64,000 nucleotides of DNA from Cyanidioschyzon merolae. Its lineage: Eukaryota. Location of the stretch: NCBI GenBank assembly GCA_000091205.1, contig AP006491.2; one strand, written 5' to 3'. Both the position numbers and the translations under genes were made by a program. Below the pieces are notes generated by a model. The model saw only the letters and a list, made by a program, of their open reading frames with translations, was not told the origin of the DNA and did no database searches. This document shows, in pieces, positions 1,901 through 42,945 of the stretch (the first letter of the stretch is position 1; each line of letters begins with the position of its first letter).

Positions 1901-1934
<34 letters not shown>

Positions 1935-5269: not shown

Positions 5270-7790
5270 CTTTCAAAACAAAAACGCTGTCGCCAGCGGT
5301 GTACCGTAGTGGCAGTGAACGCGCCCTAGACAAGGAGTCTCCAACTGACGTGCAGACGTCTCCCAGTTTTTTTCGACCGGCCACCTCATACAGGATACAA
5401 CTTTTTCTCATATAGTTCAACTTTCAGAGGTTGTCCAATAAAGTCCCTTCTTGTGGACTCTGGAGGTCTCGTCTCCAACACCGCACATCTCCTGATATTG
5501 ATAGCGGCGTTACAGTCTCGGTTCAAAAACTCCATACGTTTCTTGCCATTGATTGTACTTACGAATGGAAGTAGTCCCCGAACTTTCGCTCTCCTTTCCA
5601 TTTGTTCATCTGTCAGCGCTCTATACTTTTTTATATCCTCAGGGCTCCTCTGGAACTTTTCCATCTCGATCCTCTGGAGTGCACAGCCCAGTTCGTGGTG
5701 TGTGATTACGATGTCCGGAACTCATCTATCGGTATGGTCACGAAACCGTCTGCGCACTCCTTGCACGTTCTTGTCAACGGTGCTGGTATGCTCTCTCTTT
5801 GGGTCACCCGCCGTCCTGCTCCATACGTTACCACGAGCCTCTGACTCTTGTCCTCCTTGAGGATGCTCAACTCATTGAAAAAGCTGGTCAACGCATGCTC
5901 CCTTCCCACAATACAAGCTCAAACACAGACGAGCTCACGGAAGTTTGGTGTACGCTTTCCACAGCGCCTCGTCATGCGCAGCTTGAGTGTCCATGACCTC
6001 TGGAAAATCTTGAAAATCCGCATGTCGGATCGTCACCTCGCTCATAGCTTCCCTGTGATCCTTCATTCCTGCATTCCATGTCTCAATTTTCTTCCCTGCA
6101 TTCATGATTCCCGATTCTCGATAGTATCTCGCGCTCGAGAGCCTCAAAAGTCGCATATCTCTCTGACGTACTCTACCCTCAGTATCATCTTCCGCACGCT
6201 TGGGTACAGCGATGGTAATGATATTCGTGTTTCCGGGGTCCGCGCCGACGACAAAGTCGTTCTCCTGCACCTTGTTCGTCGTAGGACACGCCTTCTTGTT
6301 ATCTTCGTGCTCCGCCGACGGCGATATCGAGGACGAAACAGGACGAGCTGCCTTCAACTGCCGATCGTGAACACACTAGGATACTCCATCGGTTTCGATG
6401 ATGCCCGTGAATACCGTTTTCTTGCTCGTTTCGAGACGCTCGAAATCGAAGATATTCTTCCAGGGCTTCTCGTGGTTTTCACCGGTGAACCCTGTCTTCC
6501 TTACATCGAACCCCCGGACAGATCTCCTTCATGATGCCGTAGAGGACTCCGGCGTCGATCGTTCCAAAATCGAACTTGATGATGCATAATGGAACGACGT
6601 TGAAGCGCTTCCCCATTAGGGTCGCCCACCGCTTCAACGACTCTTCGTTTGCTTCCTCACCGTGCTCCATATCCGCCTCGGGATCGAGTTGTCGGTCCAG
6701 AAACACGAAATATCGCACGACGAGGCGATCGCATCTTTCCTTGATGTTTTTCAACTCTGATATCTTTTCTGCTGGATTCGGCATCCCCAGCACCGCACGG
6801 TGCTCTCCTATAACCGCACGGATGACAGAAGCTTCGTTCGTGCTCTCGTTCGACGCCTTCGCTCCGACGAATTCGATCTCATCTTCATTCTGACTATCGT
6901 TCGCGATGCCATTGATGCTGGCCTTTGTCGCTCTGCAAGACGGGCCCGCGTCCAGCGCAGACACGGCGCGTATCATGAAACGTTCGAGGTTCACGGTCAT
7001 GCGGTTCTTCAGGTTCTCGTGGTGCTTCATTGCCCCGTATTCGTAAATATCCGCGTCACCCTTGTATCGAGTACCGTTGGAGCGGTATTTCGCGAAGTTT
7101 TCGTGGAGGGCATACATTCGCGCATTTCTCCTCGACGTTTCCCGCGTGCCAATCACCAGATGACGAATACAGGTCTTGTCGAAAAATTCTTCCGGAACCT
7201 CGACTGTTTTGGTGTCCATCACGTCGCGATACATATCTCTCGCGATATGCATCAGTGCTACAGCAGCGTTACAAACACGCATAGAGTGCGACTCGAAACG
7301 GGGTCTGATGGCCTCTTGGAGCTTTTCCGTGTACGGATCCCTGATGTGTTTATGAAGACAGGCTTTCACCAGCATCTCGTGATATTATCGTCTTTCTCGC
7401 ATCCATCGACGTCGGGCCTCCCGCCGTAACTTCTCCTTCTTGTCTCGTTCCGCTTTGCTCGGCTCTGTTTTTCATTTTTCCCCGGCAGCCGGCAACACCA
7501 GGCCTCCAGGATCCTCCATTTCCATTACTTTCCATTTTTATGATAAGAATGCACTTTGAAAGCGTTTGCTATGAACCACGAAAAATCACTTGACCATAAT
7601 ACTGTAAGGGCTGAAACACGAATGAATCGCAAGACTATATTTTGCTATGACTTCAACGCAAATACACCTTTTTCCCGTAGAAAAACACGCTGCTGATCAG
7701 CATCGCGTTTCCTTTCAATGGCGGCATGCGCGTCGTTTCTCATGTCAACCAGATATGGTCATATGCTTGTGGACCGCGATGCGTAAAGGT
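5270..7790 (-). mobile_element. Fanzor (eukaryotic TnpB-like) element copy A, degraded; core 5350..7593 plus flanks shared with copy C
   Basis: Protein in ORFs 6479..7375, 5935..6357, 5706..5909, 5386..5664 (minus). Right-end core ctgggagacgtctgcac (rc at 5350-5364). 5'-end core tcaagtgatttttcg (rc at 7579-7593). About 190 nt upstream and ~85 nt downstream flank are ~80-85% identical to the flanks of copy C. Confidence 0.75.
5386..7375 (-). pseudogene. TnpB/Fanzor-like RuvC nuclease gene, disrupted (one frameshift near 6479, in-frame TAG near 6360, further frame breaks)
   Basis: Four ORF pieces in different frames. Motifs: [17 protein letters not shown] (RuvC-I-like), [54 protein letters not shown] (TnpB RuvC-III-like DxNAAxNI). 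Translating the minus strand across 6361-6480 gives [34 protein letters not shown] where copy C continues ..[14 protein letters not shown]..., i.e. TAG in place of ATG. Confidence 0.7.
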
Positions 7791-8529
7791 GTCCAGTTTG
7801 TGCATTACAGGAAAAGTCAATAACCGCGTTCTGTTTTATGTTCATCGCTCTCGTGTGCAGCGCAGTTGCGTTGCCTGTTCTCCGTCAAACAATGCTGGGC
7901 AGTGGACCGAACGCTTTTGTGCCGTCGACTGGTAGAAAAGGTTCGGAACGAGCTCGAGCAGCGGTTCTGGCTATAGCGCTTCAACGGATAGCTCTGCAAT
8001 GTCTGCATACGTTTCATCGAATGAGAGCACTGCCCCGCGGGACACGGCGCCGACGCTGGGTGGTGGTCTCTTCGCCGGCGTCCTGCCGAGTCCGAGTATG
8101 ATGCCCAGCCCCAGCATGACAGCCAGCCTAGGTGCTGGCGTTGTTATGATGACAGCCGGGTGAACTAGCATATGTTTGTGAGCAGGATTGCGACTCGCTT
8201 GAGTATTCGAGGCAATGCTCGGTCAAAATGCTCGCATCACGGTTCCCGTACTCATATCGATCTCACGTTCTTTGACCGGGAAATGGTACGGTACTGGTGT
8301 CAGCGGGCGCAGGAAGACCCACTCGTAGATTTTTATGGCGGCTCCAGTGACGTTCCAATCTCTGGACAATGTCATCATCACTAGCACGCCCGTGGGGACT
8401 GTATCACGGCAAGAAAACATGGAATGAAGAGGGAGCTTCCATGCGGAATCTGCTGTAAATGCTTTCCAGGTTTTCTAGCATCATCATTCAGCAGCATTCG
8501 CGCCAGGCTGAAAACCCTGTCCTTTACGT

Positions 8530-10092
8530 TCAACTGCCCAGAGATTGCGTTGATACCCGCTGCGGTGTATAGTAGAGAACGGCGCGCTCGTTCCGCGGTT
8601 GCAACGGGCGCACGTTTGGTTGGCCCCGCTGCGCTGCCAGGATGCGGTCCACAATTCGCTGTGGCAACGAGTCACGATGGGTCAACACAATCCACTTGAT
8701 GTTCTCGGAGCAAGGCGGGGTCGTCAGGCTGCCTCGGTAATAGAAGAAGCTGGGCCGTGCCTCAGGGTCCAGCTCCTCGGCGGCCAGCGCCACGCCTGAC
8801 TCGATTTCTCCGGCTGGCGATCGTGATGCCAATGAACGTGCAGTGCTTTCTCGCAAGAGCGTATCCGCAAAATTGAATTCCACGAAGCGTGTGGTTCTCA
8901 GTCTACCGGGCCGAGATGGTGCCGTTTGGCTGGTCGCTGTGCTCGATGGTGGTAGCGACGAGTTCGATGCATCGGCGACCAGAGACTCAACGGGGATACT
9001 GGCACGCGTAGCGCCGGCGGCTGCTGAGGTGTAGGTCAGCGAGGTCTCGCCATTCGTTGCGCCTGCATCCTTCTGTGCCGGAGGCTGACCAGCTGGTGCT
9101 TCATCCAGCAGTGAGAGCAGCTCATCAAGCCAGCGTGGAACCGGTGTATCAGGCGCGCCTACTGCCGCTGCGTCCGCACCGCTTCCGTCGCTCGCTGGGT
9201 TCGCCTCGGGAACCGCACGCCAGATGCGACCAATCACGGCAACATCGTTCTCATCCGCCACGTTCCGAAACACGGCGTGCATTTCGAGGTCACCACGGAA
9301 ACGTTCGATGACATGCTCGCTCTGAGGTGCGTGGAAGTGAATGTTCACCAGGCGGTACTGTTGCACTTGTGCGTCGCTGAGTTTGACTGGAGTCGGCGCC
9401 TCAGTTGCCGCGACCGATGTGCCATCGCCATCAGTCACCTTGGGGAGCTCTGGAGGGAGCTCTCGCAACGTCAAGGTCGCTGCTGGAAGCGGCGCTTCAA
9501 AGCCAGTGTCCTGTGGTAATTCACCGCCAACGGGCGGTGAAAGCGGAATATACTGCTCGAACGTCGCCGTCGGCGGGTGGATATCTAGTGGAGACGGCTC
9601 GAAGCGTTTCCACTGCGCAACTTGACTGGTTATGTCGAAGGGAGCGGCCGCAGTTGAGTATTCGAAACGCAACGCTTCTCGCTCCGAGAGCGCTATTGGC
9701 GACTGGAAACGTCCACAAGAGCACAGACGGTATGCATCAGCGAGACCACCCCACTTGGACGGCCCTCGCTCTGAACCGTAATCCCAGCAGAGGTTCTGGT
9801 TGGCTGCAGCAGCCTGCGGGCTCTGCACGTCAGGCACCTGCGCTTGCGTGTACGTTTGCATTGGACTAGCTCCGTCTTGGTTGCTCGGAGCGTTCACAGC
9901 ACCTGCCGATTGTGCAGTGTCGCACTGTGCGTGCACGAGTTCAGGTTTGCCTAGAAGAAGCGCCGTGGAAAGCAGCACTACGGCCGCTCCTCGATCCCGC
10001 GAGAGCGCTATTCGCAATAGTCTCTCGGAGCCGCTTCCGAAATGAGTTGTCTCTATGCAATGAAAGACAACGGCATGCGGCGATGCGTGCAC
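8530..10092 (-). CDS. alpha-carbonic anhydrase with N-terminal targeting-like extension (secretory or thylakoid-lumen type); start codon unresolved
   Basis: Alpha-CA signatures: NLCWDYG..GPSKWG, Zn ligands in VNIHFHAPQSEH and EMHAVF, YRGSLTTPPCSENIKWIVL, NVRPLQPRN. A Cys pair (NLCW / TPPC) is typical of disulfide-bearing extracytosolic alpha-CAs. Hydrophobic stretch AAVVLLSTALLLG then VHA-Q near the N-terminus. The ORF-track start at 10092 is GTG, and there is no in-frame ATG between it and the upstream stop at 10204-10206. Confidence 0.8.
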   Translation of the reverse strand: MHASPHAVVFHCIETTHFGSGSERLLRIALSRDRGAAVVLLSTALLLGKPELVHAQCDTAQSAGAVNAPSNQDGASPMQTYTQAQVPDVQSPQAAAANQNLCWDYGSERGPSKWGGLADAYRLCSCGRFQSPIALSEREALRFEYSTAAAPFDITSQVAQWKRFEPSPLDIHPPTATFEQYIPLSPPVGGELPQDTGFEAPLPAATLTLRELPPELPKVTDGDGTSVAATEAPTPVKLSDAQVQQYRLVNIHFHAPQSEHVIERFRGDLEMHAVFRNVADENDVAVIGRIWRAVPEANPASDGSGADAAAVGAPDTPVPRWLDELLSLLDEAPAGQPPAQKDAGATNGETSLTYTSAAAGATRASIPVESLVADASNSSLPPSSTATSQTAPSRPGRLRTTRFVEFNFADTLLRESTARSLASRSPAGEIESGVALAAEELDPEARPSFFYYRGSLTTPPCSENIKWIVLTHRDSLPQRIVDRILAAQRGQPNVRPLQPRNERAVLYYTPQRVSTQSLGS

Positions 10093-10967
10093 CGCGCGAG
10101 ACGCTACGCCGATCGACGAAGGACACGTGTCCGACGCCGCATTGGCACATGCGTGTTCGAACCTGCGTACTGCACTTGAAATCCGGTGTCCTATATCGGA
10201 AACTCACGTAGAATGCTCTCTTGCGCTAGGCGCTATCGCTGGTGTCGACGCTCCTGCCCATCTCAGTACCGCCCTGAAGCACAGTCGGTGTTGTGGCAGG
10301 CTTGGATCCCGATCATGCTTCCAGAAGACGCGTAGCGTTCGCAGCGGCGTTCGCTTGTGTGGATGAGGTATGCATCTCTCCACTCAACAGGAGTTTCGTT
10401 AGGTTTATTGATCGTAACCAAACTAGGCACGGTATGGCTCCTGAACTCGTATATACGTTTTTTGTGATGCTTGTAATGCATGCCGCACGGACGCTGCAAT
10501 GAGGAACTGATTTGAATTGTGCTTCTATCCGGCGTTATGCACTGTCGACAATGACATTGCTTATCGTTGGCATGCTGTCGTCGTGGTCAAAGTTATGATG
10601 GCCGCTACGTCCCCCGGATCCGGTGATCTTGCTAGAGGCATCGCGCATGCGGCGTCTAAATGTACCTTGACGTCTGAGCCTCGCATTTCGCCTGGCACGA
10701 TCGAGGCACATGACAAAATCACATACTGTATTCTGCTCTACTCTATCCGTTTACTGCCAATGGCGTTACTTATATGTAGTGGTGGAATCGCCAAACCGTA
10801 AACTTTCACGTACCACCGCCCGTTCCATATGCTCCCGGATACTCAGTGGCTACCCGTTGATTTTCCACTCGCATTAATCATATCGCGGAGCGTATGGATT
10901 TTCTTTCTTTTACTGCTCAACGGAGCCGAAAAGTTCATCGACCAAGAAGAGTATACATATCTACAAC

Positions 10968-11450
10968 GCGCAGACGCCTCCCAGCGGTTCTTTTTTAACT
11001 GACCACCTACTATCGACTTCAGCTTTTCCTTGTAAACTTTGAACCTGAGAGGCTGCCCCGCAAAGCTCGATCGCGTCAGCTCCTCGGACCTCGCCTCCAG
11101 CAACGCACATCATCTGATATTGATGGTTGCGTTAAAGTCTCGGTTCGCGAACTCCATGCTTTTGCTGCTTCTGGATGAACTCACCATTACGAGGATTGCT
11201 ATAGTTTGCGACCTCTGTATCACTCCAGTCTCGTCATCGCTCCGTCGTACAAACACGTTTTCTCGCCTATCTCCCATGTTCTTCCTCTTCCCTATGTGCT
11301 CCGTCACTTGCTCCTCTTCGCTCGATAGTCGGCGAGAAGAGGAGTTTTCGTTTTTCTCCGGCACTCGGCGATGACAACGCTCCAGGATCCTCGATTTGCA
11401 TATCCATATCATTCCCTTGGATTCCATATTTCTTCACCTGAACGCTTCTG
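10968..11450 (-). mobile_element. miniature Fanzor/TnpB-derived non-autonomous element, copy F2 (~483 bp)
   Basis: Minus-strand frames read ..KSMEFANRDFNATINIR (ORF 11110..11427) and ..FAGQPLRFKVYKEKLKSIVGGQLKKNRW (ORF 10843..11103), homologous to the last ~130 aa of the large-element protein. 5' end cagaagcgttcaggtgaag (rc at 11432-11450). Right-end core gggaggcgtctgcgc (rc at 10968-10982). Same internal-deletion architecture as F1, F3 and F4. Confidence 0.7.
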
Positions 11451-11694
11451 CTACGCACCGCGAACCAGCGTTTCATGACACGCACACGCGTGGGGAACTT
11501 CATGGAGGTGAAAGCCTCGACAAGCATTGTCCAATTTCATGCTGCATTGTACATATGCCGTTTTATACAGTTTCCGAATGCCACTGCTGGCTGCGCGCGC
11601 GCAGGCATCCAGCGAGCGATGCGTCGTGGCGTCCTACGAACGCATCCATGCGACTCGTCTCGCAACTGCGTTTCACGACGAAGGCTCAAACGCA

Positions 11695-12154
11695 ATGCGC
11701 ACCCTTCCGGCTTTCATTTTCCCTCTAAACCTAACGCTCGAGCAAGTATCCTCAAGCGAAACTCTCTCACAGCGGGAAACGCGACCGAGAACGGTTGTAC
11801 GTCGGGCAAGAGCGCGCCGTTCAGGGAACGGTGTCGAGTTGCCAGCAAACGCACTGAGCACCACTTGGCCTCTAGCCTCTGTTTACCCGAGTGTCTTGGA
11901 AATGCAGTGTGCTCAATCAAGACAACGAGACTCCATTCTACTGCAGAGGGCAACGGGCACCGGCAAAGGGCTCAAGTTCAGGTTCGTGAACAGCCACTCG
12001 GCTGATGCGAACGACGGTCTGCGTGCTGGTTCCGGTAAACCTGGTAGCTTGAACGCGCGTGGCTTTGCTGGTGGCTCCGGAGGCGACGGCGCTTCAGGAA
12101 TGAACGCAAGCGAAACGGTGCCCTTGCCACCGTGGTCCCCACTCAGCGCCTCAA

Positions 12155-12185
<31 letters not shown>

Positions 12186-14367: not shown

Positions 14368-14465
14368 ATGCAACGAGACCCGGATACGAGAATCCGGGCT
14401 GGAGCACAAGTCGAGAAATTTCGATCCTTCTACGCGCCCTTCGTGCGAAACTGTAAGGCACTCGC
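14368..14465 (-). repeat. ~100-nt dispersed motif ending in a hairpin, copy H1 (inverted relative to H2 at 19089..19197)
   Basis: The reverse complement (agtggcgagtgccttacagtttcgcacgaagggcgcgtagaaggatcgaaatttctcgacttgtgctccagcccggattctcgtatccgggtctcgttgcatc) aligns at ~65-70% with 19089-19197. It ends in the hairpin cggattctcgtatccg. Confidence 0.45.
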
Positions 14466-23354: not shown

Positions 23355-23378
23355 CACACACACACACACACACACACA
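23355..23378. repeat. (CA)12 dinucleotide microsatellite
   Basis: cacacacacacacacacacacaca read directly. Confidence 0.9.
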
Positions 23379-27493: not shown

Positions 27494-28050
27494 GTTGCTA
27501 ACCGGCACCAGGCTTGGGCCTATGCTTCGGATGTTCCGAACCCGAAAGCAACCTGTGCGCGATGTGGCACACAGTTGCCACGAACTCCGCCGCAGCAGCG
27601 GTACTGTTGCTGGAAACGCAACGTTCCGGGCGCTCCGCAGCCGCTCCGCCCGAAAAAGCGCCTGTCGCGAAGCGGCCTGGGCGGGACACGGGGGCAGCGT
27701 TTGATGTTCATTATTGTCTCATTTAATGCTGGTGGTGCATGGGGCGCGCTCCTCTGGAAACGTTCCCCCTACGTTTGTCCACTGGACGGTGTCGTTTCAT
27801 GGGGTACCAAGTTGCTTCGCAAGTTGCTCGGCGTACAAGTATGCCCCTGGTGCGTGGATGCATTGCTTGAGGCGTTGACAGGAATCGAACAGAATCGAAT
27901 CCTGCACTCAGTGTACGCTCCCGTCGACGGAGCGGGCGTGCACCCCTGGCGCTGCAGCTCGTCTGGCGTCGTCATCTACCAGCGAACGACGCGTCTTGCA
28001 GAACAGTTGCTTTCGCAACTCCTTTGGACAAGTTCGACGACGCACAAATC

Positions 28051-29237
28051 TTACCGCTGCACAAGCGATACAGGTGGCGAACGCTGCCCAGTCTCGTGGA
28101 ATCGATGGAAAGCGCGTTTGCATATGCTATATGGACGCGCACGTAGGCTCAGCATGAAGCGTACAGAGCGTTGTCCTCTGCTCAACACGGCTCTCAGCGC
28201 GTTCACGCGAGTCCCGATACCGTTACGCCCCTTGTTGGCATGCCTGCTGGTGTCCGTCATTTCGGATTGCCGTTCAGACGGAGCGATGGAAACGTTGTGC
28301 AGCTTCATCTGCTTCCCGTTCAGGTCTTTGGCGGTATCACCGTGATCTAGGGATTCGACAAGCGCCATGACGCGGTTCAACCGCAGATCCACGCGTACCA
28401 GAAGGTGTTTCTCTTCGTCTGCGTTGAACAGTTTGCATTGAGTCTCGGTGCTCGACACGGAATCAATTTTTACGAAATGAATGCAGATTGAGATTCCATC
28501 GAACGCCATCATCCCGGTCCATTGCTTTCCATTTTCTCCGAGTAAACCAGAAACCTTGGAGGAGCTCTGCCTGTGCTCTTCTCGAAGGTTTTCAAATACG
28601 TCGTAGTTGCTCGCTGAGACGGGCTCCTTCTTCGCCTTGTCTTCGATTTGGCGCGGTTGCATACACGCATGCATGCGCTCGCTATACTCCATGTATGTTT
28701 GTATCGCTTGGCATGCAGAGGCACTGGATGACGGACGGTGCTGAAACGCGCATGTTCTGTCTATTGATCGACGATTCCTCAAGAATCCTGGTCATCTTCT
28801 CTGTCGCAAGCACGCCCACACATCAAAGCGCCTTTGCACGCGCTTTTCCACGCACGAGCAGAGAAACAACAGCGTAGTTCAGGGCTGCTGTATGTACTAA
28901 AGCACAGTTTGTCAAAGCACGATTTACAGACACACGGGATCGTGGATGCGAACGACTCTTCTATTGATCGGGCAGCGCGACCGTGGCGTTTTCCAACCCG
29001 ATACGACGCCACTGACTGTATGCAAACAGGGAGAAAATCGGCCAGCGTAACCAGGAACGCAACGCCGATCTCAGCTGCAAACTCCTTCACCGCGTTTGAT
29101 CGATGGAAAGCGACGTCATTGAAGAGCACCACATAAGAATTCGGGAAAGCGAAGCCAAGAAAAGTGCTTGGATGAAAAACGTGGTGTGAAACGAGCCTGT
29201 CCTTGTTGGCGATTCGCAGGCGACCAAACGATAGCAT
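28051..29237 (-). CDS. hypothetical protein, possibly one gene split over two abutting ORFs (28779..29237 and 28051..28782) by a frameshift
   Basis: Two minus-strand ORFs meet within 3 nt in different frames. The upstream piece starts with an ATG at 29237. Both pieces contain similar segments (YVVLFNDVAFHRSNAVKEF / YDVFENLREEHRQSSSKV). No confident family assignment. Confidence 0.25.
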
Positions 29238-32463: not shown

Positions 32464-32856
32464 GGTGCACGAGGGAGAGGTTCCTGGTGTTCTCTCTGCA
32501 CTCAGGACACCAGCATGGTGCAGCTAGATCCTGTTGCTGGTGAAGCGTGCCACGAGCAGCGCACCGTTCAAGCGCAGCGTGCTCGATGCGAAAGCACTGG
32601 TAGCTCGCTGGGCGTGTCGGTCGTCCCAGTCGTAGCGTTTTCGCGCACCAGCGGATGAGTTGCAGTGAAGGAGTAGAGCGGCATAGGGTCGAGGCCAGCG
32701 GGTACGTCGAAGCTGTCCCAGTACGAATAGTCCATAAAAGTATAGCATCCAATCAACCCTCCGTTCGCCTGAAGCGTACCATGTCCGTTGCTACCCTCTG
32801 TCTTCCGTTTCGATGGTACTCCATCCCCAGGTATCGGTAACCAAATGCTTTTTCGC

Positions 32857-33171
32857 GGTTTATAGAAGAAGCGTTCCGAGCGCGTTGATTTTGAGAAATA
32901 AAGAATCTGAGGGAAAAGTATGAAGGCGTGGATTTCGGGTACCCGGTGTCGTCAGGCGCCGGAAATAAACGAACAAAACATCGTATTGCTGCCGACAATC
33001 GAGCGATGAAGAGCAATTGACGAAAAATAGAAGACGGTTGGAGATAGGGGAGAAAAGGTGTTTGTAAGACGGGACGATGACGAGAGTGTAGTGGTTCAGA
33101 AGGGCACGAATGCGAGGAATCCTTGCAGCAGTGCATTCAACAAGAGGCAACAAACGCAAGGAGTTTGTGAA
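32857..33171 (+). mobile_element. miniature Fanzor-derived element copy F4, 3'-truncated at a tail-to-tail junction with copy B
   Basis: 5' end agaagaagcgttccgagcgcgttgattttgag matches the mini/full 5' terminus. The internal sequence aligns with F3 across the mini-specific deletion junction (...ataggggagaaaaggtgtttgtaagacgggacgatgacgagag...). The sense frame reads RRARMRGILAAVHSTRGNKRKEFVN and then stops matching at 33171. Confidence 0.6.
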
Positions 33172-35165
33172 CTCGTGGCCTTCTTGCCATTTCCTTTTCG
33201 GTTAGCGCTACGTGCTTTCCTATCTCCCAAGCGGGTCGCTGGCAATTTCCCATCTCGATCCTCTGGAGTTTACAGCCCAGTTCGTGGTGTGTGATTACGA
33301 TGTCCGGAACTCATCTATCGGTATGGTCACGAAACCGTCTGCGCACTCCTTGCACGTTCTTGTCGACGGTGCTGGTATGCTCTCTCTTTGGGTCACCCGC
33401 CGTCCTGCTCCATACGTTACCACGAGCCTCTGACTCTTGTCCTCCTTGAGGACGCTCAACTCATTGAAAAAGCTGGTCAACGCATGCTCCCTTCCCACAA
33501 TACAAGCTCAAACACAGACGAGCTCACGGAAGTTTGGTGTACGCTTTCCACAGCGCCTCGTCATGCGCAGCTTGAGTGTCCATGACCTCTGGAAAATCTT
33601 GAAAATCCGCATGTCGGATCGTCACCTCGCTCATAGCTTCCCTGTGATCCTTCATTCCTGCATTCCATGTCTCAATTTTCTTCCCTGCATTCATGATTCC
33701 CGATTCTCGATAGTATCTCGCGCTCGAGAGCCTCAAAAGTCGCATATCTCTCTGACGTACTCTACCCTCAGTATCATCTTCCGCACGCTTGGGTACAGCG
33801 ATGGTAATGATGTTCGTGTTGCCGGGGTCCGCGCCGACGACAAAGTCGTTCTCCTGCACCTTGTTCGTCGTAGGACACGCCTTCTTGTTATCTTCGTGCT
33901 CCGCCGACGGCGATATCGAGGACGAAACAGGACGAGCTGCCTTCAACTGCCGATCGTGAACACACTAGGATACTCCATCGGTTTCGATGATGCCCGTGAA
34001 TACCGTTTTCTTGCTCGTTTCGAGACGCTCGAAATCGAAGATATTCTTCCAGGGCTTCTCGCGGTTTTCACCGGTGAACCCTGTCTTCCTTACATCGAAC
34101 CCCCGGACAGATCTCCTTCATGATGCCGTAGAGGACTCCGGCGTCGATCGTTCCAAAATCGAACTTGATGATGCATAATGGAACGACGTTGAAGCGCTTC
34201 CCCATTAGGGTCGCCCACCGTTTCAACGACTCTTCGTTTGCTTCCACACCGTGCTCCATATCCGCCTCGGGATCGAGTTGTCGGTCCAGAAACACGAAAT
34301 ATCGCACGACGAGGCGATCGTGTCTTTCCTTGATGTTTTTCAACTCTGATATCTTTTCTGCTGGATTCGGCATCCCCAGCACCGCACGGTGCTCTCCTAT
34401 AACCGCACGGATGACAGAAGCTTCGCTCGTGCTCTCGTTCGACGCCTTCGCTCCGACGAATTCGATCTCATCTTCATTCTGACTATCGTTCGCGATGCCA
34501 TTGATGATGGCCTTTGTCGCTCTGCAAGAGGGGCCCGCGTCCAGCGCAGACACGGCGCGTATCATGAAATGTTCGAGGTTCACGGTCATGCGGTTCTTCA
34601 GGTTCTCGTGGTGCTTCATTGCCCCGTATTCGTAAATATCCGCGTCACCCTTGTATCGAGTACCGTTGGAGCGGTATTTCGCGAAGTTTTCGTGGAGGGC
34701 ATACATTCGCGCATTTCTCCTCGACGTTTCCCGCGTGCCAATCATCAGATGACGAATACAGGTCTTGTCGAAAAATTCTTCCGGAACCTCGACTGTTTTG
34801 GTGTCCATCACGTCGCGATACATATCTCTCGCGATATGCATCAGTGCTACAGCAGCGAAAAGAACACGCATAGAGTGCGACTCGAAACGGGGTCTGATGG
34901 CGTCTCGCAACTTCTGCCTACGTGGATCCTCGATATGTTTGAGAAGACAGGCTTTCACCAGCATCTCGTGGTACTGTCGTCTTTCGTGCAGCTTTTGACG
35001 TAGGGCCTCGCCCTTTTGCTTCTTCGTCCTGTTTCGTTCCTATCCCATTAGCACTGTTTGTCGTTTTTCTCCGCCTGCCGGTAGCAAGGGCCCTTCAGGA
35101 TCCCCGACTTGCACCCGCATAGCTTTGCTTTGGCGTTTTTATTTCGTCAAAACGACCGCACGTCT
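33168..35165 (-). mobile_element. Fanzor element copy B, 3'-truncated; body ~99% identical to copy A, 5' end of a different sub-lineage
   Basis: 33245-34985 is near-identical to 5660-7400 (only a few aa differences in the paired ORFs). The 5'-UTR part 34985-35165 is only ~70% similar to A. 5' terminus aaaaagacgtgcggtcg (rc at 35154-35170) aligns with the F3 terminus. The 3' part ends at 33168-33180 (sense ..MARRPRV), ~45 nt upstream of the RuvC-III codons. Confidence 0.7.
33170..34964 (-). pseudogene. TnpB/Fanzor-like nuclease gene, truncated and carrying the same frame lesions as copy A
   Basis: ORFs 34068..34964, 33524..33946, 33295..33498 plus the MGNCQRPAWEIGKHVALTEKEMARRPRV piece mirror the ORF pieces of copy A, including the same TAG and frameshift. 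Confidence 0.7.
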
Positions 35166-36160: not shown

Positions 36161-36781
36161 CGGGCCTCTTTGATGGTAGCGTTCACGCATCCGATAGATG
36201 CCAATATGACACATCTGGTGAAAAAGCAGCTAAACATTCGCGTCGATTCGTTTTCTGGGTCTGTTCAGGGCATGGTGCTGGCATGTGCGTGCTGGCACTC
36301 ACCAGCACTCACTGAACGTTGCTTTGCAGTCGCGAAATGCGAAAGCATCCCGCTCCAACGCGAGTTCGCGGTGATGAACTTGTCTTCAGCATCGCTTCCA
36401 AAGTCCGAATGCGACCAGCAAATGCCTCTTCATGGGAAGCTTGCGGCAAATACCATTTCAGTTTGACATGGATGAATTCGTGCTCGACATTTCACGAGTG
36501 CAGCGCAAGAGGTCAATTCACTGTCCGCTTACACCTGTGCATGCGACGGCAACATAGAAACCGCAAACGAGTGCTCTGCATTCATTGGAAATACCCTGCA
36601 GCATAGGCATCTGGATCCCATCCAATCGTTCAGAGCGCTTTTCCGCACGGCGCTGCTGAGGGCGCACTGATCCGTAAAACGCTTGGGATGTTTCGGAAGA
36701 CATCTCGCTGCCTTTCGAGTCGAGCTTGTTGCGAGAGGAAAACCCAGCAGCCGGGGGACGTGCACGAGTTGCGTTTTTGCT

Positions 36782-37039
36782 ATGAGCGCTGCGCGATCGT
36801 CATCGACGAGCATGGTGAGTCCGGCAGCGCCGGCGGACCCCTGTGCTAGGCTCAGGGAGGAGGCGCTGCGCTGCTTCGGGGAAGCCAAGCGCCAGCCTGG
36901 GGCACACGATACCTGTCGCGAAAAGAAAGAGTGCTATCGACGCTGTCGTGACCTTTGGCTGGCCGAAATACGCAAGGCACGACGTGGAGAGCGACTTCCG
37001 AACCCGGCGGTGACGGGCCAAACGCCGGACACCAGCTAA
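36782..37039 (+). CDS. small twin-Cx9C (CHCH-fold) protein, probably mitochondrial intermembrane-space type
   Basis: C-ARLREEALR-C ... C-REKKECYRR-C gives two Cx9C pairs separated by a short linker, as in Cmc1/Cox19/Mdm35-type proteins. Basic C-terminus. The ORF-track start at 36683 is TTG; in-frame ATGs are at 36782 and 36812. Confidence 0.4.
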   Translation: MSAARSSSTSMVSPAAPADPCARLREEALRCFGEAKRQPGAHDTCREKKECYRRCRDLWLAEIRKARRGERLPNPAVTGQTPDTS

Positions 37040-38025
37040 ACCTCGCTCTGGGTGGTAATCGTCCGCAACCTGTGCGGCCGACTGGGATGATTTCCACGTT
37101 GAAAGCACCTTTGGACTTTGTTGGCTTTTTGGGGAGTCTTCGCAGATCAGAGCTGTTGTCGTCGAGGTTACCCGCGGCCGCCTGCTCGCTGGTCGGCACT
37201 CGAGTCTGGGGCAGCCTGGTGCAGGCGACGTGCTGCGTTCGCTACAAGCAGCGCGTTCTGCGGTATCCGGAACTTTGTTATTCCAAGACCTCTTTTGGAG
37301 CGCAAGGCGCCACAAGCGGTAACGAGCATCCAGTAGCAAGCAAGCAAGCTGGCAGAGACGCGCCCCCGATAAAGTGCACGTGTGCAAGTATGCCTGCAGC
37401 GCTGCCGTCGACAACGGACTTGTCTCTGTGCAGCCAGTGCATGATACCGATATGCGTCCGTTCACGCTTCGTCTGCATCAGGCCAGCAACTGGTCTGATG
37501 ATATTCTCCAGGCAGCGATTGAGATGAACCTGTCGTGGGGCTGTCTGTTTATGGAAGCGCGCCATGTAGGTATACCTTGTCAAGAGTTGGTCGTGGGAAC
37601 AAGGACGCCTCTCCATTCCGTCGTTTTGCGTCTCGTGTAGTACTCGAATCCGATATCCACCGGTGCATCCAAGGCGCTACGTTCAATGCCGTGGAGCGTG
37701 ACCTCGAGACACTGCCGGGTTCCCGCTTCGTGCGTGCCCTTCCTGAGACTGTTTCGCACCGCGTTTCAACATGTATTCGGAAAGGACGCGTCTTTAGCGC
37801 TGCTCCTCGGTTCCATCCATCACAGTCTGGTCGTGAACAGACGCGTCGAACGTGCGCAGCAGAAACGGGAACCCCGAAAACGTCTCGTTACGAGGCCGTC
37901 TCCGCTGGCCCACAGGCCGTATGATCGCGCATTGCACTACGACCAAGTCAAGCTAAAAGCATGTCGTTTACCATTCGAGGTCTGTGCGACCGCGCGCTCC
38001 AACACGTTAGGTTTTTTAGAGAACA

Positions 38026-38739
38026 TCACTTCCACCACGGATTCTCACCAGTTCGAAAGTCGGTCTCCTTCCAGGGTTTGATCTCTACGAACCCGTCATC
38101 ATCCACTTCGGTATGTGCCAGAGCGAGCGACAGCGGAGCCGGACCGCGCACCACCTTCCCTGTACGATCGTACTGCGAACCATGGCACGGGCAAATGAAC
38201 TTGTTCTGTGCTGCGTTCCAAGGCACCACGCAGCCAAGGTGCGTGCAAACAGCATTCAGTGCGTAGGTTTCGAGCTCGCCGGCGTCGTTCACAACAAGAT
38301 ACGTGGGCTCCCCGTTTAGGCCCTGCACAAGGTCACGAGAGCCGGGGGGATGCGTCTTCAGATAATCCTCCTTCTTGATAGGCGTCCCGAGGGCGTCCTT
38401 TGCAATCACACCGCCTGAGCCTTTGTTCTTCAGTGGCGGCACGAAGAAGCTGGCGTACGTGCCAAGCATGATGCTTGCTGGGAGTCCAACTGAACCCACT
38501 AGAATGAGGTTCAGCAGCGTGCGCTTCCCCATATCTGGGATGTAGTCGTCATCGGATCCCGAGGAGCCGCCACCGCTGCCGCTCCCTCCACGCGCGTCAT
38601 CAACTGTACTCGGCCGCGCAAACGTCATGCGCAGCGCCACGCGCTTCCTGCCCAGCGTTGTAGGCTGGCGTTCGACTGCACCAGGATGACACCGAGACAC
38701 CGTTCTAAACGTAATGCTATTTGTTGTAAGCACGAACAT
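38026..38739 (-). CDS. petC: cytochrome b6-f complex Rieske iron-sulfur subunit (plastid PetC) with transit peptide
   Basis: Rieske boxes [11 protein letters not shown] and CPCHGSQYD; N-terminal membrane anchor [28 protein letters not shown]; Gly-rich linker. The presequence [18 protein letters not shown]... is non-hydrophobic with a Phe at position 2. ATG confirmed at 38739-38737. Confidence 0.9.
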
Positions 38740-40349
38740 TAGCCAGAGTTATAAACAAAAACGAACCTACAAGTTGAACTCGTAGAAGAACGCAAACGTT
38801 CACACACAACACGAACAAGCAACTCGCCTTGTGATCGTCGACGATGGACGGCAGCGTGCTCGCGATGCAGGGCTTCGGGGGCGCGCGGCGTTGGACGCTA
38901 CCGCCGCCGATGGCGACGCTATAGACGCTGCCGCGTTTTCGCTCGATGTGCCTGCGCTGGAAAAAAGGAACGCTGCTATCGCTTTGAGAGACAGCAACAT
39001 CTGGGTATCACTGTGGTAAATGAAGGCCAGCCACTTACTTTGAGTGTAGTACTAGCAACGAATGGTCCCGTAGCTGAGCCCCAGTGCTCGCGAGTGGCCA
39101 GTGAACTCATACTCTACCTTCTAGGTGGAAGGTCCAGTGAACGAGATGCGCACACGGGACCAGTGTTACGCGCACCTACTCACTGGTGGGTGGCAAGCAC
39201 AAGCCCGAGTCGCCAACCGAGGGCGACGCTTTCCGTGTACGATCACGCAGGAGAGAGGCGGCTCCCAGGATTCATCGTAACAGCCAAGTTTCTCCAACGT
39301 GTTGTGCAGCGAAAGCAAGTTTTGCATCCGCAGGCTGTCCGAGCGCAAACTGACGACGAGACCCGATTCTTTGTCGAGTGAAGCACGCCTCGAGCAGACG
39401 CCGTCTGTGGTACGGCAACGCCGTTCTGTTTCTGTGCTACGACAGCACCGGCGCTACAAGCGCTATTGAGGCGGATGTTCACGGGCAGGCACTCGGCGCC
39501 CGATAGCACGTCTGAAACGCCAGTACATCCGAGACGAAGTATGGATTATGAAACTTGGACGTAAGGCGTGGAATGACGAAAGTTTCACCGCGCGCAGGCT
39601 CCAAGCGCACAGAGTCGCGGCACGCTCGCCTGTGTGAGAAGTTTTCACATGGAACAAAATCCGCTGCCTTTGCTGTTGCCGCTGATTGTTCTCCAATGAC
39701 AAAACATTTACATGGTATTTGGATTCCAGATAGCGAGATGGATAGGTACTGGTGATCGAAAAAGTGTCCATCGTGATGCACTCTACCTCCATGCCCCATT
39801 ACTTATACTTACTTTCGGATGTACTGATCGTTTTGTGCGTTCTGTAGTGCGCCGAGTGCCTGCTTTGAGCAACCGCCTTAGCGCCTAAACTGCTGAAGCA
39901 GATACTGCACGGAGATAGAACGGCGTTGCCATACCACTGAGGGCGCCGGATCGATGAACGCTTCACCTGATACAGCGTTGGAATGCACAATAATTCTGGG
40001 AGCCTGTAGGCTAAACAGACACAACTACTGCCTGCGAAAGCGCGAACCGATATATTAGGAGTCTACTGCGATCCGGGCGACGACCAAACACAGCATCCCG
40101 CGTCTAGTCCCAGAATGAACTGCGTTGCGGACGAGCTGCTCAGGTCTCGCCACAGCGCCCGCTACTGGGGGGAGCACGAAGCACGAGTCTGGGAGACTCG
40201 TCCTGCTCGCGGGACTTTTCGCCTAGAGGGAGGATTCTTCAGAATATGGAAACCTTTTTCCCCGTTTTCAAAGTTTATCGTAGAACGGGAGAGAAATTGC
40301 TGTATCGTTGCTCGCTAGTCGTGAGTCTCTCTTCTTTGTTCTACATAGT

Positions 40350-42945
40350 GCTGTCGATTTGCGCACCAGGGAGATCTGTCAGTTTCGAGTCACGACGCGT
40401 ATGCTGCCGTTGAAGGGAAACGCGATCCTGATCAATAGCGTGCTGCTCTAATGTGCAAGTTGTACTTGCGTTAAAGACGTAGCAAAGTACAGTTCTTCAG
40501 TTCATTTGTGTCTCAAACCTCAAACAAGTGTATTCAACTGTTTTTTCGCAGTATATAACTGAAGCGTTCAAAGTCCGTTACAAAAGATAAAAAAGGAAAG
40601 TTATGGAAAAGGAAGTGGAGGATCCTGGAGGCCCAGTGTGGCTGGCCGCCAGAAAAAAAAACAAAAAAATAGTGCCGAGTCCAGAAGAAAACGAAGCGAG
40701 AAAGAAGCAAAATGGGGGCCCTACGTCGAAGGCTGCAAGAAAGACGTCTGTACAACGAGACGGTGGTGAAAGCCTGTCTTCGTAAACATACCAAGGATCC
40801 GTACAAGGCAAAGTTGCGAGGCGCTATCAGAAACCGTGTCGGGTTGTAATCCATAACGATTATAAAGGGGTCGTCAGTACGAATGCATTTGGCGAGGGAG
40901 ATGTACGAAGACGTGACGCACGTGGAAACAGTCGAGGTTCTGGTCGAGTTTTTCGACAAGACCTCTATTCGTCACCTGATGCTTGGTACGGGGGAATCGT
41001 CGACAAAGAAAGAGCTAGTGCATGCCCTCCACGAAAACTTCGCAGAATTCCGCTTCGAGGGAACTCGATACAAGGGTGACGGAAATATTTACACATGCGG
41101 GGTGATGAAGTACATCACGAACCTGAGGAACCATTTGACTATGAACCCGGAGCGTTTCATGATACGCACCGTCTTTGCGCTGTACTCGGGCCTGTCTCGC
41201 AAAGGAGTATGGGCGATTACCAATGGCATCACGAACGATCGCAAGCATGATGAGATCGAATTCGTCGACAGGAAGGCGTCACGCAGGAGAAGGTTTAAAA
41301 CTTCTGTCATCCGTGCGGTTATACAAGAGCACCGCGCAGTCTTGGGGTTGGCGAATTCAATAGAAAACATATCAGAGTTGGAAAAAGATAAGGAAAGATA
41401 CGATCGCCTCATTCTGCGCTATTTAGTGTTCTTAGACCGAGAACTCGAACGCAAGGCAGAGGTGAAGCTGAGTGAGGAAAAAATGAAGAGTGGAGGAGAC
41501 GGAAGGCTGACCTAATGGGGAAGCGCTTTAACGGCGTTCCGTTGTGCAACACCAAGTCACATTTCGTGAGTATCGACTCCAGACTCTTTTACGGCATCAC
41601 GAAGGAGATCAGTCCCGACTTCAATGTTAGCAGGGAGGACTTCACCGGCGAAAACCGGGAGACGTGCGGTAAGAAAAGTATCTTCTATTTCAAACGTCTG
41701 AAAGTGAGCAAACAAAAGATATTCACTGGGATGATCGAAACCGATGGAGTAGCCATGTGTGCACACTATCGGCGCTTGACGACAGATCGTCCAGTTCCGC
41801 CCGTGACGAAGCATGAAGAGAAGAAGGATGCGGGTCCTGCGATGCAGGAGGTGGAGGATAACGACCTGGTCGTTGACGCGACGAAGCATGAAGATAACAA
41901 CAAGGCGGCTCCTGCGACGCAGAAAGTGCAAGATATCGACTTTGTCGTTGGCGCGGACCCCGGAAACACAAATATCATCACCATCGCAGCACCGAAGTGT
42001 GCGGAAGATGGTACTGACGGTAGTTTACGTCAGAAAGACATGCGTCTATTGAGGTTCTCGAGAGCTAGATACTACCGAGAATCGGGAATCATGAATGCGG
42101 GGAAGAAAATCGAGAGCTGGAATTCAGGAATGAAGGATCACCTAGAAGCTTTGAGCGAGGTGACGAGCCGCGGAGCCGACATTGAAGCTTTTCGGGAGTC
42201 CATGGAAGGTCCGCGTTGCTCATTGGGATACGCTGTGGGAAGAGTACACCAAGCGCCGGTGGGCTCGTCTGCGTAAGAATCTGTATTGTGGTAAGCAACG
42301 TGCATTTGCCAACTTTTTCAATGCGTTGAGCGCCCTCAAGGAGAATGAAAGTCAGAGGCTCGTCGTAGCGTACGGAGCAGAGCGCTGGGCGTCCAAAAAA
42401 GGGACTACACCAGCTCCGTCGACAAGAACGTACAAGGAGTGCGCACGGCGTTTCGCTACGATACCTGTAGACGAGTTCCGAACATCGTATACACACCACG
42501 AACTGGGGTGTACGCATCACAGAGTGGAGATGGAAACGTGCCAGAGGAGTCCTGAGGATATAAAAAAATACGGAGCGCTGATGGAGGGGCAAATGGAAAG
42601 GAGGGCGAAATTTAGCGGATTGCTTGCATTAGTAAGTACACTCAATGATGGCAAGAAACGGATGGAATTCGTGAACAGAGACTTTCACGCAGTGATCAAT
42701 GTAAGATGTGCGGTAATGGAGAAAAGGCCTCGATACTGGACACGAGAGAACTTTGTTGGACAACCTCTCAAAGTGGAACTATATAAGAAAAAGCTGGAAG
42801 CAGTAATGGGTGGCCGGTCCAAAAAAACTGGGAGGCGTCAGCACATCAGTTAGAGACGATTTGTCTAGGGCGCGTTCGCCGCCACTGCTGAACACCGTCG
42901 GCGTCGTTCGACTTTTGCAAAGTGTTCGGTATCGGTGTCGGTGAC
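40350..42945 (+). mobile_element. Fanzor (eukaryotic TnpB-like) element copy C, degraded; core 40524..42844 plus flanks shared with copy A
   Basis: 5' terminus caaacaagtgtattc (40521-40535). 5' leader with ggaggatcctggaggcc. Right-end core gggaggcgtcagcac (42830-42844), followed by atcagttagagacgatttgtctagggcgcgttcgcc, which matches copy A downstream. Confidence 0.75.
40711..42853 (+). pseudogene. TnpB/Fanzor-like RuvC nuclease gene, disrupted by an in-frame stop near 40790 and frameshifts near 41515 and 42200
   Basis: ORFs 40883..41515, 41515..42276, 42182..42853 are homologous along their length to the copy A pieces. Motifs: [48 protein letters not shown] then HHELGCTHHRVEMETC, KKRMEFVNRDFHAVINVRCAVM. 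N-terminus MGALRRRLQERRLYNETVVKACLRKH then stop. Confidence 0.7.

What the first reader, a model, noticed from the sequence alone, without database searches (positions are those of the whole stretch)
5270..42945. Family of eukaryotic TnpB-like (Fanzor-like) RuvC nuclease elements: three degraded full-length copies
Copies A (5270-7790, minus), B (33168-35165, minus) and C (40350-42945, plus) encode the same ~800-aa protein. Its C-terminal third has the defining architecture of IS200/IS605 TnpB and eukaryotic Fanzor: a RuvC-I-like [17 protein letters not shown], a KEC..F.TIPVDEFRTS segment followed by a Cys-rich region in the position of the TnpB zinc finger, and a RuvC-III-like block KKRMEFVNRDFNAAINIRRCAVL (TnpB consensus DADxNAAxNI). 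The ~300-aa N-terminal region has no obvious TnpB counterpart. All three copies are pseudogenised, so the family is probably decaying here. If this is a red-algal genome, I am not aware of Fanzor having been characterised there, and this may be an undescribed family.
Basis: partly seen in the sequence, partly recalled or inferred. Interest (0 to 1): 0.9.

Follow-up and report, generated by a model that had tools for sequence, protein, structure and literature searches.

The report
Dead copies of a known Fanzor transposon

Summary
Three related copies lie at about 5267-7760 (-), 33150-35161 (-) and 39692-42930 (+). Each carries the DPG, DEFRTS and NRDxNAAINI motifs that its extent allows, and all three are pseudogenes.

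The Fanzor interpretation is right. A 67-sequence family profile matches only three PDB sequences, all Fanzor1 (E 2e-24 to 5e-12). A confident AlphaFold model (pLDDT 83) has Fanzor1 structures as its seven best hits.

The novelty suggestion is wrong.
- The flanking RACK1 protein is identical to that of C. merolae 10D.
- The copies are 81-88% identical in DNA to the CMe-1A consensus published by Bao & Jurka (Mob DNA 2013).
- The frame-corrected proteins are 70-76% identical to their 734-aa CMe-1 Fanzor1.
- Jiang et al. 2023 also list rhodophyta among Fanzor hosts.

- Copy C starts about 650 bp earlier, because it includes the TE-N2_CMe-like 5' module.
- Copy B is truncated at both ends.
- The protein is 734 aa, not about 800.
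- The N-terminal region is homologous to the Fanzor1 REC region.
- The CCCC zinc finger is lost rather than present.

No guide RNA (omegaRNA) could be demonstrated. Minor extras are a 3'-terminal hairpin in two variants and two much older Fanzor-like relics.

Verdict: already known, low interest.

The parts
5267..7760 (-). Copy A: CMe-1A core, consensus positions ~666-3169, without the TE-N2_CMe-like 5' module. It may extend 6-25 nt further at the 3' end, to about 5245.
   Evidence: blastn and MAFFT against the published consensus give 82.3-82.6% identity. The copy has 3 frameshifts (+1 at 6515, +1 at 5902, +2 at 5706) and 5 stops in the consensus frame.
5386..7535 (-). Copy A: disrupted Fanzor1 ORF. 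The original start is ME..EDPGG, followed by a K/R-rich N-terminus. The frame-corrected product is 712 aa.
   Evidence: Three-frame translation. The frame-corrected protein is 70% identical to published CMe-1 over 712 aa.
6223..6258 (-). Copy A: RuvC-I motif [12 protein letters not shown]. The catalytic Asp codon is at 6238-6240.
   Evidence: The Asp is invariant in 67/67 family members and aligns with the IDP/MDPG/CDPG motifs of the solved Fanzor1 proteins.
5709..5735 (-). Copy A: IPIDEFRTS, carrying the Fanzor-type alternative (rearranged) RuvC-II Glu. The canonical RuvC-II position upstream is Gly, in VVTYGAG.
   Evidence: E656 and G623 are invariant in 67/67 members. The rearranged site is described in PMC10530073.
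5485..5523 (-). Copy A: RuvC-III motif NRDCNAAINIRRC.
   Evidence: R, D, N, A and N are each conserved in 65-66 of 67 members, and the motif aligns with NRD in PpFz1 and SpuFz1.
5265..5288 (-). Copy A: 3'-terminal hairpin, type 1 (AGCGTTTTT-gttttg-AAAGACGTT), with a 9-bp stem that includes 2 G-T pairs.
   Evidence: Hairpin scan of independent copies and the alignment of 3' ends.
33150..35161 (-). Copy B: CMe-1A fragment, consensus ~871-2872, truncated at both ends. It has no RuvC-III motif and no 3' end.
   Evidence: 80.6-81.2% identity to the consensus and 94.7% to copy A. It shares with A all 3 frameshifts and the stops at aa 385 and 532.
39692..42930 (+). Copy C: full-length CMe-1A, consensus 1-3169 plus about 6 nt. 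The interval 39692-40330 is the TE-N2_CMe-like 5' module.
   Evidence: 83.6-87.9% identity to the consensus. The right boundary is fixed by locus L003, whose 99.7% identity to the window starts exactly at 42931.
40603..42853 (+). Copy C: disrupted Fanzor1 ORF with 3 frameshifts (at 40713, 41478 and 42208) and 2 stops.
   Evidence: The frame-corrected protein is 76% identical to CMe-1 over its full length.
41802..41951 (+). Copy C: in-frame tandem duplication of a 75-nt (25-aa) unit just upstream of RuvC-I.
   Evidence: the repeat finder family D1, two copies at 79% identity, also seen. The copy number varies among relatives. The insert is disordered in the model at residues 388-470.
41938..41973 (+). 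Copy C: RuvC-I motif [12 protein letters not shown].
42461..42487 (+). Copy C: IPVDEFRTS, carrying the alternative RuvC-II Glu.
42674..42709 (+). Copy C: RuvC-III motif NRDFHAVINVRC, with a 3-nt deletion relative to the consensus.
10966..11418 (-). Internally deleted CMe-1 remnant. Consensus 895-968 lies at 11345-11418 and consensus 2871-3088 lies at 10966-11184. It is adjacent to another repeat at 10085-10647.
3581..3817 (-). Fragment of about 240 bp that matches CMe-1A consensus 2849-3086, the RuvC-III/C-terminal coding part.
   Evidence: 72.5% nucleotide identity; tblastn aa 646-731.
53957..54205 (+). Fragment that matches CMe-1 aa 640-723 (consensus ~2840-3075).
32842..32976 (+). Short fragment that matches CMe-1A consensus 833-969, inverted relative to the adjacent copy B.

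Best explanation
The three loci are decayed copies of CMe-1A. This is a published, transposase-less repeat family of Cyanidioschyzon merolae whose only gene encodes a Fanzor1 protein, the eukaryotic relative of the bacterial IS200/IS605 protein TnpB.

Shown here:
- The window comes from C. merolae 10D, or a sequence identical to it in the flanking gene.
- The copies match the published consensus and protein.
- Intact relatives fold like solved Fanzor1 nucleases.
- Those relatives keep the Fanzor-type catalytic set: Asp in DPG, Gly at the canonical RuvC-II position with the alternative Glu in DEFRTS, and Asp in NRDxNAAxNI.
- Codon-position conservation shows the family diversified under purifying selection on the protein.
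- All three window copies are dead.
- A and B descend from a copy that was already dead.

Inferred from SpuFz1, PpFz1 and GtFz1, not shown here: an intact CMe-1 protein enters the nucleus through its K/R-rich N-terminus, binds an omegaRNA transcribed from the 3' end of the element, and cuts DNA that carries a transposon-adjacent motif (TAM) and matches the guide. This would help the element persist or spread.

In this window the copies have no enzymatic function. At most they act as repeats for ectopic recombination.
For: - Organism: the adjacent RACK1 protein is identical to BAM80140.1/XP_005536426.1 of C. merolae 10D.
- Family: the published CMe-1A consensus (3169 bp) and CMe-1 protein (734 aa) were retrieved from the supplements of PMC3627910. 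Consensus against window gives A 82.3%, B 80.6% and C 83.6/87.9%. The frame-corrected proteins are 70% (A) and 76% (C) identical to CMe-1. This fits the published description of about 150 copies, each about 80% identical to the consensus.
- No terminal inverted repeats, as published.
- Fanzor1 homology: a 67-member family profile hits only PpFz1 (2.2e-24), SpuFz1 (1.3e-17) and GtFz1 (4.9e-12) in the PDB, with the three motifs aligned. The AlphaFold model has pLDDT 83.3 and pTM 0.81. The top 7 Foldseek hits are all Fanzor1, at E 1.8e-16 to 7.2e-14 and target-normalised TM up to 0.73; Cas12 and TnpB follow far behind.
- Catalytic residues are invariant or nearly so: D484, G623 and E656 in 67/67, D725 in 65/67.
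- Selection: identity by codon position is pos2 > pos1 > pos3, for example 0.95/0.92/0.79.
- Decay: frameshifts and stops in each copy, with shared lesions in A and B. Only 2 of 39 non-redundant environmental copies are intact.
Against: - Single-sequence searches find nothing significant in Pfam or the PDB. A shallow 14-sequence profile also finds nothing. Homology becomes visible only with a deep profile.
- The modelled protein, P0001, is an environmental relative that is 71% identical to CMe-1. It is not a window copy.
- The CCCC zinc finger shared by SpuFz1 and TnpB is absent, so biochemical activity cannot be assumed.
- No omegaRNA could be demonstrated. There is no Rfam hit, no covariation, and no excess third-position conservation at the 3' end.
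- No CMe-1 protein has been tested biochemically in any paper I could find.
Confidence: 0.95

Rival explanations
1. The copies belong to a previously undescribed red-algal Fanzor family.
For: Pfam does not recognise the protein. The large protein database holds only unnamed environmental homologues and no annotated C. merolae protein.
Against: Bao & Jurka 2013 list Cyanidioschyzon merolae under Rhodophyta with family CMe-1A and give its consensus and protein. The window copies match these at 81-88% in DNA and 70-76% in protein over the full length. The organism is the same. Rhodophyta are also named in Jiang et al. 2023.
Confidence: 0.02
2. The copies are dead as protein genes but still active as RNA or DNA elements. 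They would either supply omegaRNA guides to, or be mobilised in trans by, intact CMe-1 copies or an unknown transposase elsewhere in the genome.
For: Copy A keeps its complete 3' end, including a 9-bp terminal hairpin. A and B share three frameshifts and two stops, so a copy that was already dead was duplicated. Bao & Jurka report that some genomic copies remain intact.
Against: B has lost its 3' end, and C's terminal hairpin is degraded to 5 bp. There is no covariation support for a conserved 3' RNA fold and no extra synonymous-site constraint there. B is truncated at both ends and shares no flanks with A, which fits ectopic recombination or partial duplication as well as it fits transposition.
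Confidence: 0.15
3. The resemblance to RuvC motifs is accidental, and the repeats encode an unrelated protein or none at all.
For: Only short motifs were visible by eye. Single-sequence Pfam and PDB searches found nothing.
Against: Profile-to-PDB E-values down to 2e-24, exclusively to Fanzor1. The fold match covers the full length at probability 1.00. The motif residues are invariant across 67 diverse members. The codon-position pattern shows protein-level selection.
Confidence: 0.01
4. These are functional host genes whose apparent frameshifts are introns or programmed frameshifts.
For: A and B share identical frame breaks.
Against: The breaks are 1-2-nt indels relative to an uninterrupted consensus ORF. 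They come with in-frame stop codons at different positions in each copy. C has a different set of lesions. Intact relatives read straight through the same positions.
Confidence: 0.01

Closest known systems
CMe-1A element / CMe-1 Fanzor1 protein of Cyanidioschyzon merolae (Bao & Jurka, Mob DNA 2013; PMC3627910)
   Same: Same organism. DNA identity to the 3169-bp consensus is 81-88% across the element, and protein identity to the 734-aa protein is 70-76%. It shares the single-ORF layout and the TE-N2_CMe-like 5' 635 bp (copy C), and it has no TIRs. The divergence from the consensus is the ~80% the paper reports.
   Different: Nothing at family level. These particular copies are pseudogenes. Copy A lacks the TE-N2-like module, B is a fragment, and C carries an extra 75-nt tandem unit. 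Comparison of many copies suggests the real 3' end lies at least 6-9 nt beyond the published consensus end.
Experimentally characterised Fanzor1 nucleases: SpuFz1 (8GKH, 9CEU-9CEZ), PpFz1 (9CF0-3), GtFz1 (9CER-T)
   Same: Full-length fold (target-normalised TM up to 0.73). They also share profile homology, the Asp/alternative-Glu/Asp RuvC set with Gly at the canonical RuvC-II position, and a basic N-terminus.
   Different: Only 12-15% sequence identity. The CCCC zinc finger of the NUC domain is lost in CMe-1 and largely lost in its clade. CMe-1 has a variable, disordered 25-aa tandem-repeat insert before RuvC-I. Its omegaRNA, TAM and activity are unknown.
Bacterial IS200/IS605 TnpB (e.g. ISDra2, 8H1J)
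   Same: Distant RuvC-core similarity (Foldseek probability 1.00, E 0.046, 273 columns). The element has no TIRs and has a hairpin next to its 3' end.
   Different: No TnpA. The protein is about twice as long. The canonical RuvC-II Glu is replaced. The window protein has no Pfam OrfB match. The host is a eukaryote.
Fanzor1-carrying Helitrons of Chlamydomonas (CRe-1/2/3; Bao & Jurka 2013)
   Same: An algal Fanzor1 in an element without TIRs or clear TSDs. A hairpin close to the 3' terminus is a Helitron-like trait.
   Different: No Rep/helicase gene is present in or next to CMe-1A. Helitron terminal signatures were not examined. The Replitron survey found no Rep-type proteins in red algae.

Membership tests
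CMe-1A (C. merolae Fanzor1 element, Bao & Jurka 2013) | Nucleotide similarity to the published 3169-bp consensus along the element | tested here: met
   A 82.3% (consensus 672-3169), B 80.6% (871-2872), C 83.6/87.9% (3-3145). MAFFT gives 81-86%.
CMe-1A (C. merolae Fanzor1 element, Bao & Jurka 2013) | Host genome is Cyanidioschyzon merolae | tested here: met
   The flanking RACK1 protein is identical to BAM80140.1/XP_005536426.1 of strain 10D.
CMe-1A (C. merolae Fanzor1 element, Bao & Jurka 2013) | Encodes the 734-aa CMe-1 protein as its only ORF | tested here: met
   The frame-corrected A and C proteins are 70% and 76% identical to CMe-1 over 712-752 aligned residues. The consensus ORF spans 906-3110.
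CMe-1A (C. merolae Fanzor1 element, Bao & Jurka 2013) | No terminal inverted repeats | tested here: met
   The repeat finder on copies A and C found only weak internal inverted pairs and none at the termini.
CMe-1A (C. merolae Fanzor1 element, Bao & Jurka 2013) | 5' 635 bp corresponds to TE-N2_CMe | tested here: met
   Met for copy C (consensus 3-635 present) and absent from A and B. In environmental relatives the core is preceded by at least 4 different repeats.
Fanzor1 | Significant sequence-profile similarity to experimentally defined Fanzor1 proteins | tested here: met
   Profile A3 against the PDB gives only PpFz1 2.2e-24, SpuFz1 1.3e-17 and GtFz1 4.9e-12. It was not met with a single sequence or a shallow profile.
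Fanzor1 | Fanzor1 fold (REC/WED plus split RuvC plus NUC) | tested here: met
   The model has pLDDT 83.3. The top 7 Foldseek PDB hits are all Fanzor1, at E down to 1.8e-16 and target-normalised TM 0.71-0.73 to SpuFz. The model is of relative P0001, which is 71% identical to CMe-1.
Fanzor1 | RuvC Asp...Glu...Asp with a rearranged RuvC-II (canonical Glu replaced by Gly or Pro, alternative Glu downstream) | tested here: met
   D484, G623 and E656 are invariant in 67/67 and D725 in 65/67. The feature is defined in PMC10530073. The residues are present in A and C.
Fanzor1 | CCCC zinc finger in the NUC domain (shared by SpuFz1 and ISDra2 TnpB) | tested here: not met
   CMe-1 and P0001 have HH..C...C and Leu at the one Cys position that is kept in 46/67 clade members. 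The other Cys positions are not conserved. The feature is described in PMC10432273.
Fanzor1 | N-terminal nuclear localisation signal | tested here: inconclusive
   A K/R-rich N-terminal segment is present in CMe-1, P0025, P0031, P0049 and P0054. No predictor or experiment was available.
Fanzor1 | omegaRNA encoded at the 3' end / right end of the element | tested here: inconclusive
   No Rfam match. The RNAalifold covariation term is -0.01 on 22 3' ends. There is no extra third-position constraint. A terminal hairpin is present.
Fanzor1 | RNA-guided, TAM-dependent DNA cleavage | not testable with these tools
   This needs biochemistry. No published test of CMe-1 was found.
IS200/IS605 TnpB (Pfam OrfB_IS605 / Cas12f1-like_TNB) | Pfam match above the gathering threshold | tested here: not met
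   No families at E<=1 for the window proteins. P0001 matches PF07282 at E 0.23, 12.1 bits against a cut-off of 26.3. In the wider clade 13/67 members match, with a best E of 3e-5.
IS200/IS605 TnpB (Pfam OrfB_IS605 / Cas12f1-like_TNB) | Association with a TnpA (Y1 HUH or serine) transposase | tested here: not met
   The element holds a single ORF. The paper lists no transposase for CMe-1A.

The most novel reading that the evidence does not exclude
The CMe-1 core (consensus ~645 to the 3' end) could be mobilised as single-stranded DNA in the manner of IS200/IS605 or Helitrons. The cis signal would be a conserved 3'-terminal hairpin that exists in two sequence versions with compensating changes. 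The element would carry a Fanzor1 lineage that works without the CCCC zinc finger. The mobilising enzyme in red algae would then be unknown, and the published consensus would be a composite of the core and an unrelated repeat (TE-N2_CMe).
Probability: 0.15. Interest if true: 0.45.

Novelty: already known. Interest (0 to 1): 0.1.

Why it matters
It matters little as a discovery. The family, its host and its Fanzor1 assignment were published in 2013, and red algae are listed among Fanzor hosts in 2023.

The useful results are small:
- The first-stage reader recognised a Fanzor from raw sequence alone, which is a good sign for the scan.
- The element boundaries in this window are now corrected.
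- CMe-1 belongs to a large clade (2240 clusters at 50% identity) that mostly lacks the canonical zinc finger. This would matter to anyone choosing Fanzors for biochemistry or genome editing.
- The mobilisation mechanism and guide RNA of CMe-1A are still unknown 13 years after its description.

Tried and rejected
- Single-sequence Pfam scans of the frame-corrected proteins and of intact relatives found nothing significant.
- phmmer and a 14-sequence profile against the PDB found nothing.
- AlphaFold with a 13-sequence alignment gave pLDDT 38.8. I discarded it and ran no fold search on it.
- Rfam at gathering threshold found 0 hits over the whole window.
- RNAalifold on 22 independent 3' ends gave a covariation term of -0.01, so there is no support for a conserved omegaRNA fold. 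The copies are only about 15% diverged, so the test is weak.
- Third-codon-position conservation, used as a proxy for an overlapping RNA, showed no distinct rise at the 3' end.
- L003 as a clean empty site for copy C: the right junction is exact (42930/42931), but the left flank of L003 (TMA7 and another gene) is nowhere in the window. This is a rearrangement, not a simple insertion polymorphism, and it gives no target-site information.
- The idea that distinct 5' 'heads' define CMe-1 subfamilies: the heads are independent repeats that occur in both orientations and also alone.
- A link to Replitrons: none were reported in red algae.
- Taxonomic labelling of the wider clade: the members are almost all unnamed environmental sequences, plus one Haematococcus protein.

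Full report
OBSERVATION

ORF listings and three-frame translations show the same protein, broken into pieces, at three places. blastn of each copy against the window gives A-B 94.7% and A-C 73-79% identity. A three-way alignment shows shared sequence from about 7740 to 5263 in A and from 40388 to 42930 in C, with B truncated at both ends.

FIRST TESTS FAILED

Frame-corrected proteins gave no Pfam family at E<=1 and no PDB sequence match.

HOMOLOGUES

A protein search found 57 relatives, all from environmental assemblies. They include the intact P0001 (752 aa) and two distant intact proteins, P0049 and P0054, at 35-38% identity. In copy A this stretch contains two in-frame stops, and in C a 2-nt deletion. 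A 14-sequence profile still found nothing in the PDB, and AlphaFold on 13 sequences was unusable at pLDDT 38.8.

THE DECISIVE LITERATURE RESULT

Bao & Jurka (Mob DNA 2013, PMC3627910) list Cyanidioschyzon merolae under Rhodophyta with one Fanzor1 family, CMe-1A. They describe about 150 copies, each about 80% identical to the consensus. The consensus is 3169 bp, with no TIRs and undetermined TSDs, and the protein is 734 aa. The 5' 635 bp equal another repeat, TE-N2_CMe. Some copies are still intact.

I retrieved the consensus DNA and the protein from the supplements.
- The consensus matches the window at 82.3% (A, consensus 672-3169), 80.6% (B, 871-2872) and 83.6/87.9% (C, 3-3145).
- The frame-corrected proteins are 70% (A) and 76% (C) identical to CMe-1 over the full length.
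- The adjacent RACK1 protein is identical to the C. merolae 10D entry BAM80140.1.
- Jiang et al. 2023 also name rhodophyta among Fanzor-bearing taxa.

The family is therefore already described, in this organism.

IS IT REALLY A FANZOR?

I tested this independently of the paper. An exhaustive profile search found 2240 clusters at E<=1e-3 and 346 at E<=1e-30. In an alignment of 67 full-length members, D484, G486, G623 and E656 are invariant, and R724, D725, N727, A729 and N731 are nearly so.

This profile matches only three PDB sequences, all Fanzor1: PpFz1 at 2.2e-24, SpuFz1 at 1.3e-17 and GtFz1 at 4.9e-12. The DPG, DEFRT and NRDxNAAxNI motifs align with their counterparts. Pfam PF07282 is matched by 13 of the 67 members.

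AlphaFold with the deep alignment gave pLDDT 83.3 and pTM 0.81. Its seven best Foldseek matches in the PDB are all Fanzor1 structures, at E 1.8e-16 to 7.2e-14 and target-normalised TM 0.71-0.73 for SpuFz. Cas12 variants and TnpB follow far behind.

The invariant Gly in VVAYG, together with the invariant Glu in DEFRTS, matches the rearranged RuvC-II site described for Fanzors.

One defining-looking feature is not met. The CCCC zinc finger shared by SpuFz1 and ISDra2 TnpB is absent from CMe-1, and only one of its Cys positions survives in 46 of 67 clade members.

STATE OF THE COPIES

Measured against the consensus ORF (906-3110):
- A has three frameshifts and five stops.
- B has the same three frameshifts and shares two of the stops with A.
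- C has three different frameshifts, two stops and an in-frame 75-nt tandem duplication.

The shared lesions mean that A and B derive from a copy that was already dead. Their flanks are unrelated. No TIRs are present.

WIDER SAMPLE

Eighty related loci from hot-spring metagenomes all match the consensus at 81-88%. Among 55 non-redundant copies, identity by codon position follows pos2 > pos1 > pos3, the mark of purifying selection during diversification. Only 2 of the 39 copies that cover the whole ORF are intact.

ENDS OF THE ELEMENT

At the 3' end, most copies carry a terminal hairpin in one of two versions:
- CGTTTTTC-TTTT-GAAAGGCG
- CGTCGTTCGA-CTT-TCGAACGGCG

There is at least one compensating T-A/G-C exchange between the versions, and another within the second type. 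In two loci the stem reaches 19 bp and includes bases beyond the published consensus end. The mean score is 13.7, against 8.1 +/- 3.9 for shuffles. Because the copies are related by descent, this is suggestive only.

At the 5' end, all copies share a core that starts near consensus position 645. Upstream lie at least four different repeats, and these also occur alone in the window, so this is a nested-repeat landscape.

GUIDE RNA

Nothing could be shown. There is no Rfam hit, no covariation and no excess synonymous-site constraint at the 3' end. The RNA-guided mechanism therefore rests on homology to SpuFz1, PpFz1 and GtFz1.

VERDICT

The three copies are non-functional relics. Interest is low.

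Noticed in passing
window 61172-63231 (+) and 27802-28674 (-): Two much older, heavily degraded Fanzor-like relics. They are only 24-31% identical in protein to CMe-1, P0049 and P0054, and they still show FxGTxQTDG- and YHRNSG-type motifs. They point to at least one further, more ancient Fanzor1 lineage in this genome, and they coincide with dips in GC content.
   Followed up: partly
window 42930/42931 versus L003:1180/1181: An environmental contig is 99.7% identical to the window from 42931 onward (the RACK1 gene). Upstream it carries TMA7 and another gene instead of copy C, and that upstream sequence is nowhere in the 64-kb window. A rearrangement breakpoint therefore coincides exactly with the 3' end of a CMe-1A copy.
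   Followed up: partly
window 5702-6515 and 33295-34104: Copies A and B share all three frameshifts (consensus 1922, 2534 and 2729) and two stop codons, so a copy that was already inactive was duplicated. Their flanks are unrelated, and B is cut at both ends.
   Followed up: yes
window 41802-41951; P0001 residues ~388-470; P0010: A 25-aa (75-nt) unit just before the RuvC-I strand is tandemly repeated, with variable copy number: 1 in the consensus, A and B; 2 in C; and several in the environmental proteins P0001 and P0010. Each unit repeats a DNDxVV(D/G)A string that resembles the strand leading into the catalytic Asp. The model predicts the insert to be disordered.
   Followed up: partly
window 10085-10647 (-), 38948-39572 (+), 45070-45200 (+), 51013-51296 (+); also 39362-39563 (-), 51012-51189 (-), 58260-58606 (-): Other repeat families that sit directly upstream of CMe-1 cores in many environmental loci also occur on their own in the window. 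They include TE-N2_CMe-like pieces. One of them embeds the ~240-bp CMe-1 3' fragment that recurs at 3581-3817, 10966-11184 and 53957-54205.
   Followed up: partly
window 5238-5267 and 42930-43032: The 3' ends of copies A and C each lie just upstream of a host gene on the same strand. The first ATG (MESELDG...) is about 27 nt after the end of A, and the RACK1 ATG is about 100 nt after the end of C. I did not examine whether the element supplies promoter or 5'-UTR sequence.
   Followed up: no
window 5265-5288 (-); L023:4571-4665 and other loci: The 3'-terminal hairpin of the element exists in two sequence versions with compensating changes. The G-T pairs fall on the sense strand only, which would fit an RNA or top-strand DNA structure. 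Conserved bases (TTTGTT or TTGATGGTG) continue past the published end of the consensus.
   Followed up: partly
family alignment A3, P0001 positions 660-712: The large clade that contains CMe-1 (2240 clusters at 50% identity; one named member is from the green alga Haematococcus lacustris) has largely lost the CCCC zinc finger of the NUC domain. It keeps the RuvC residues invariant.
   Followed up: partly
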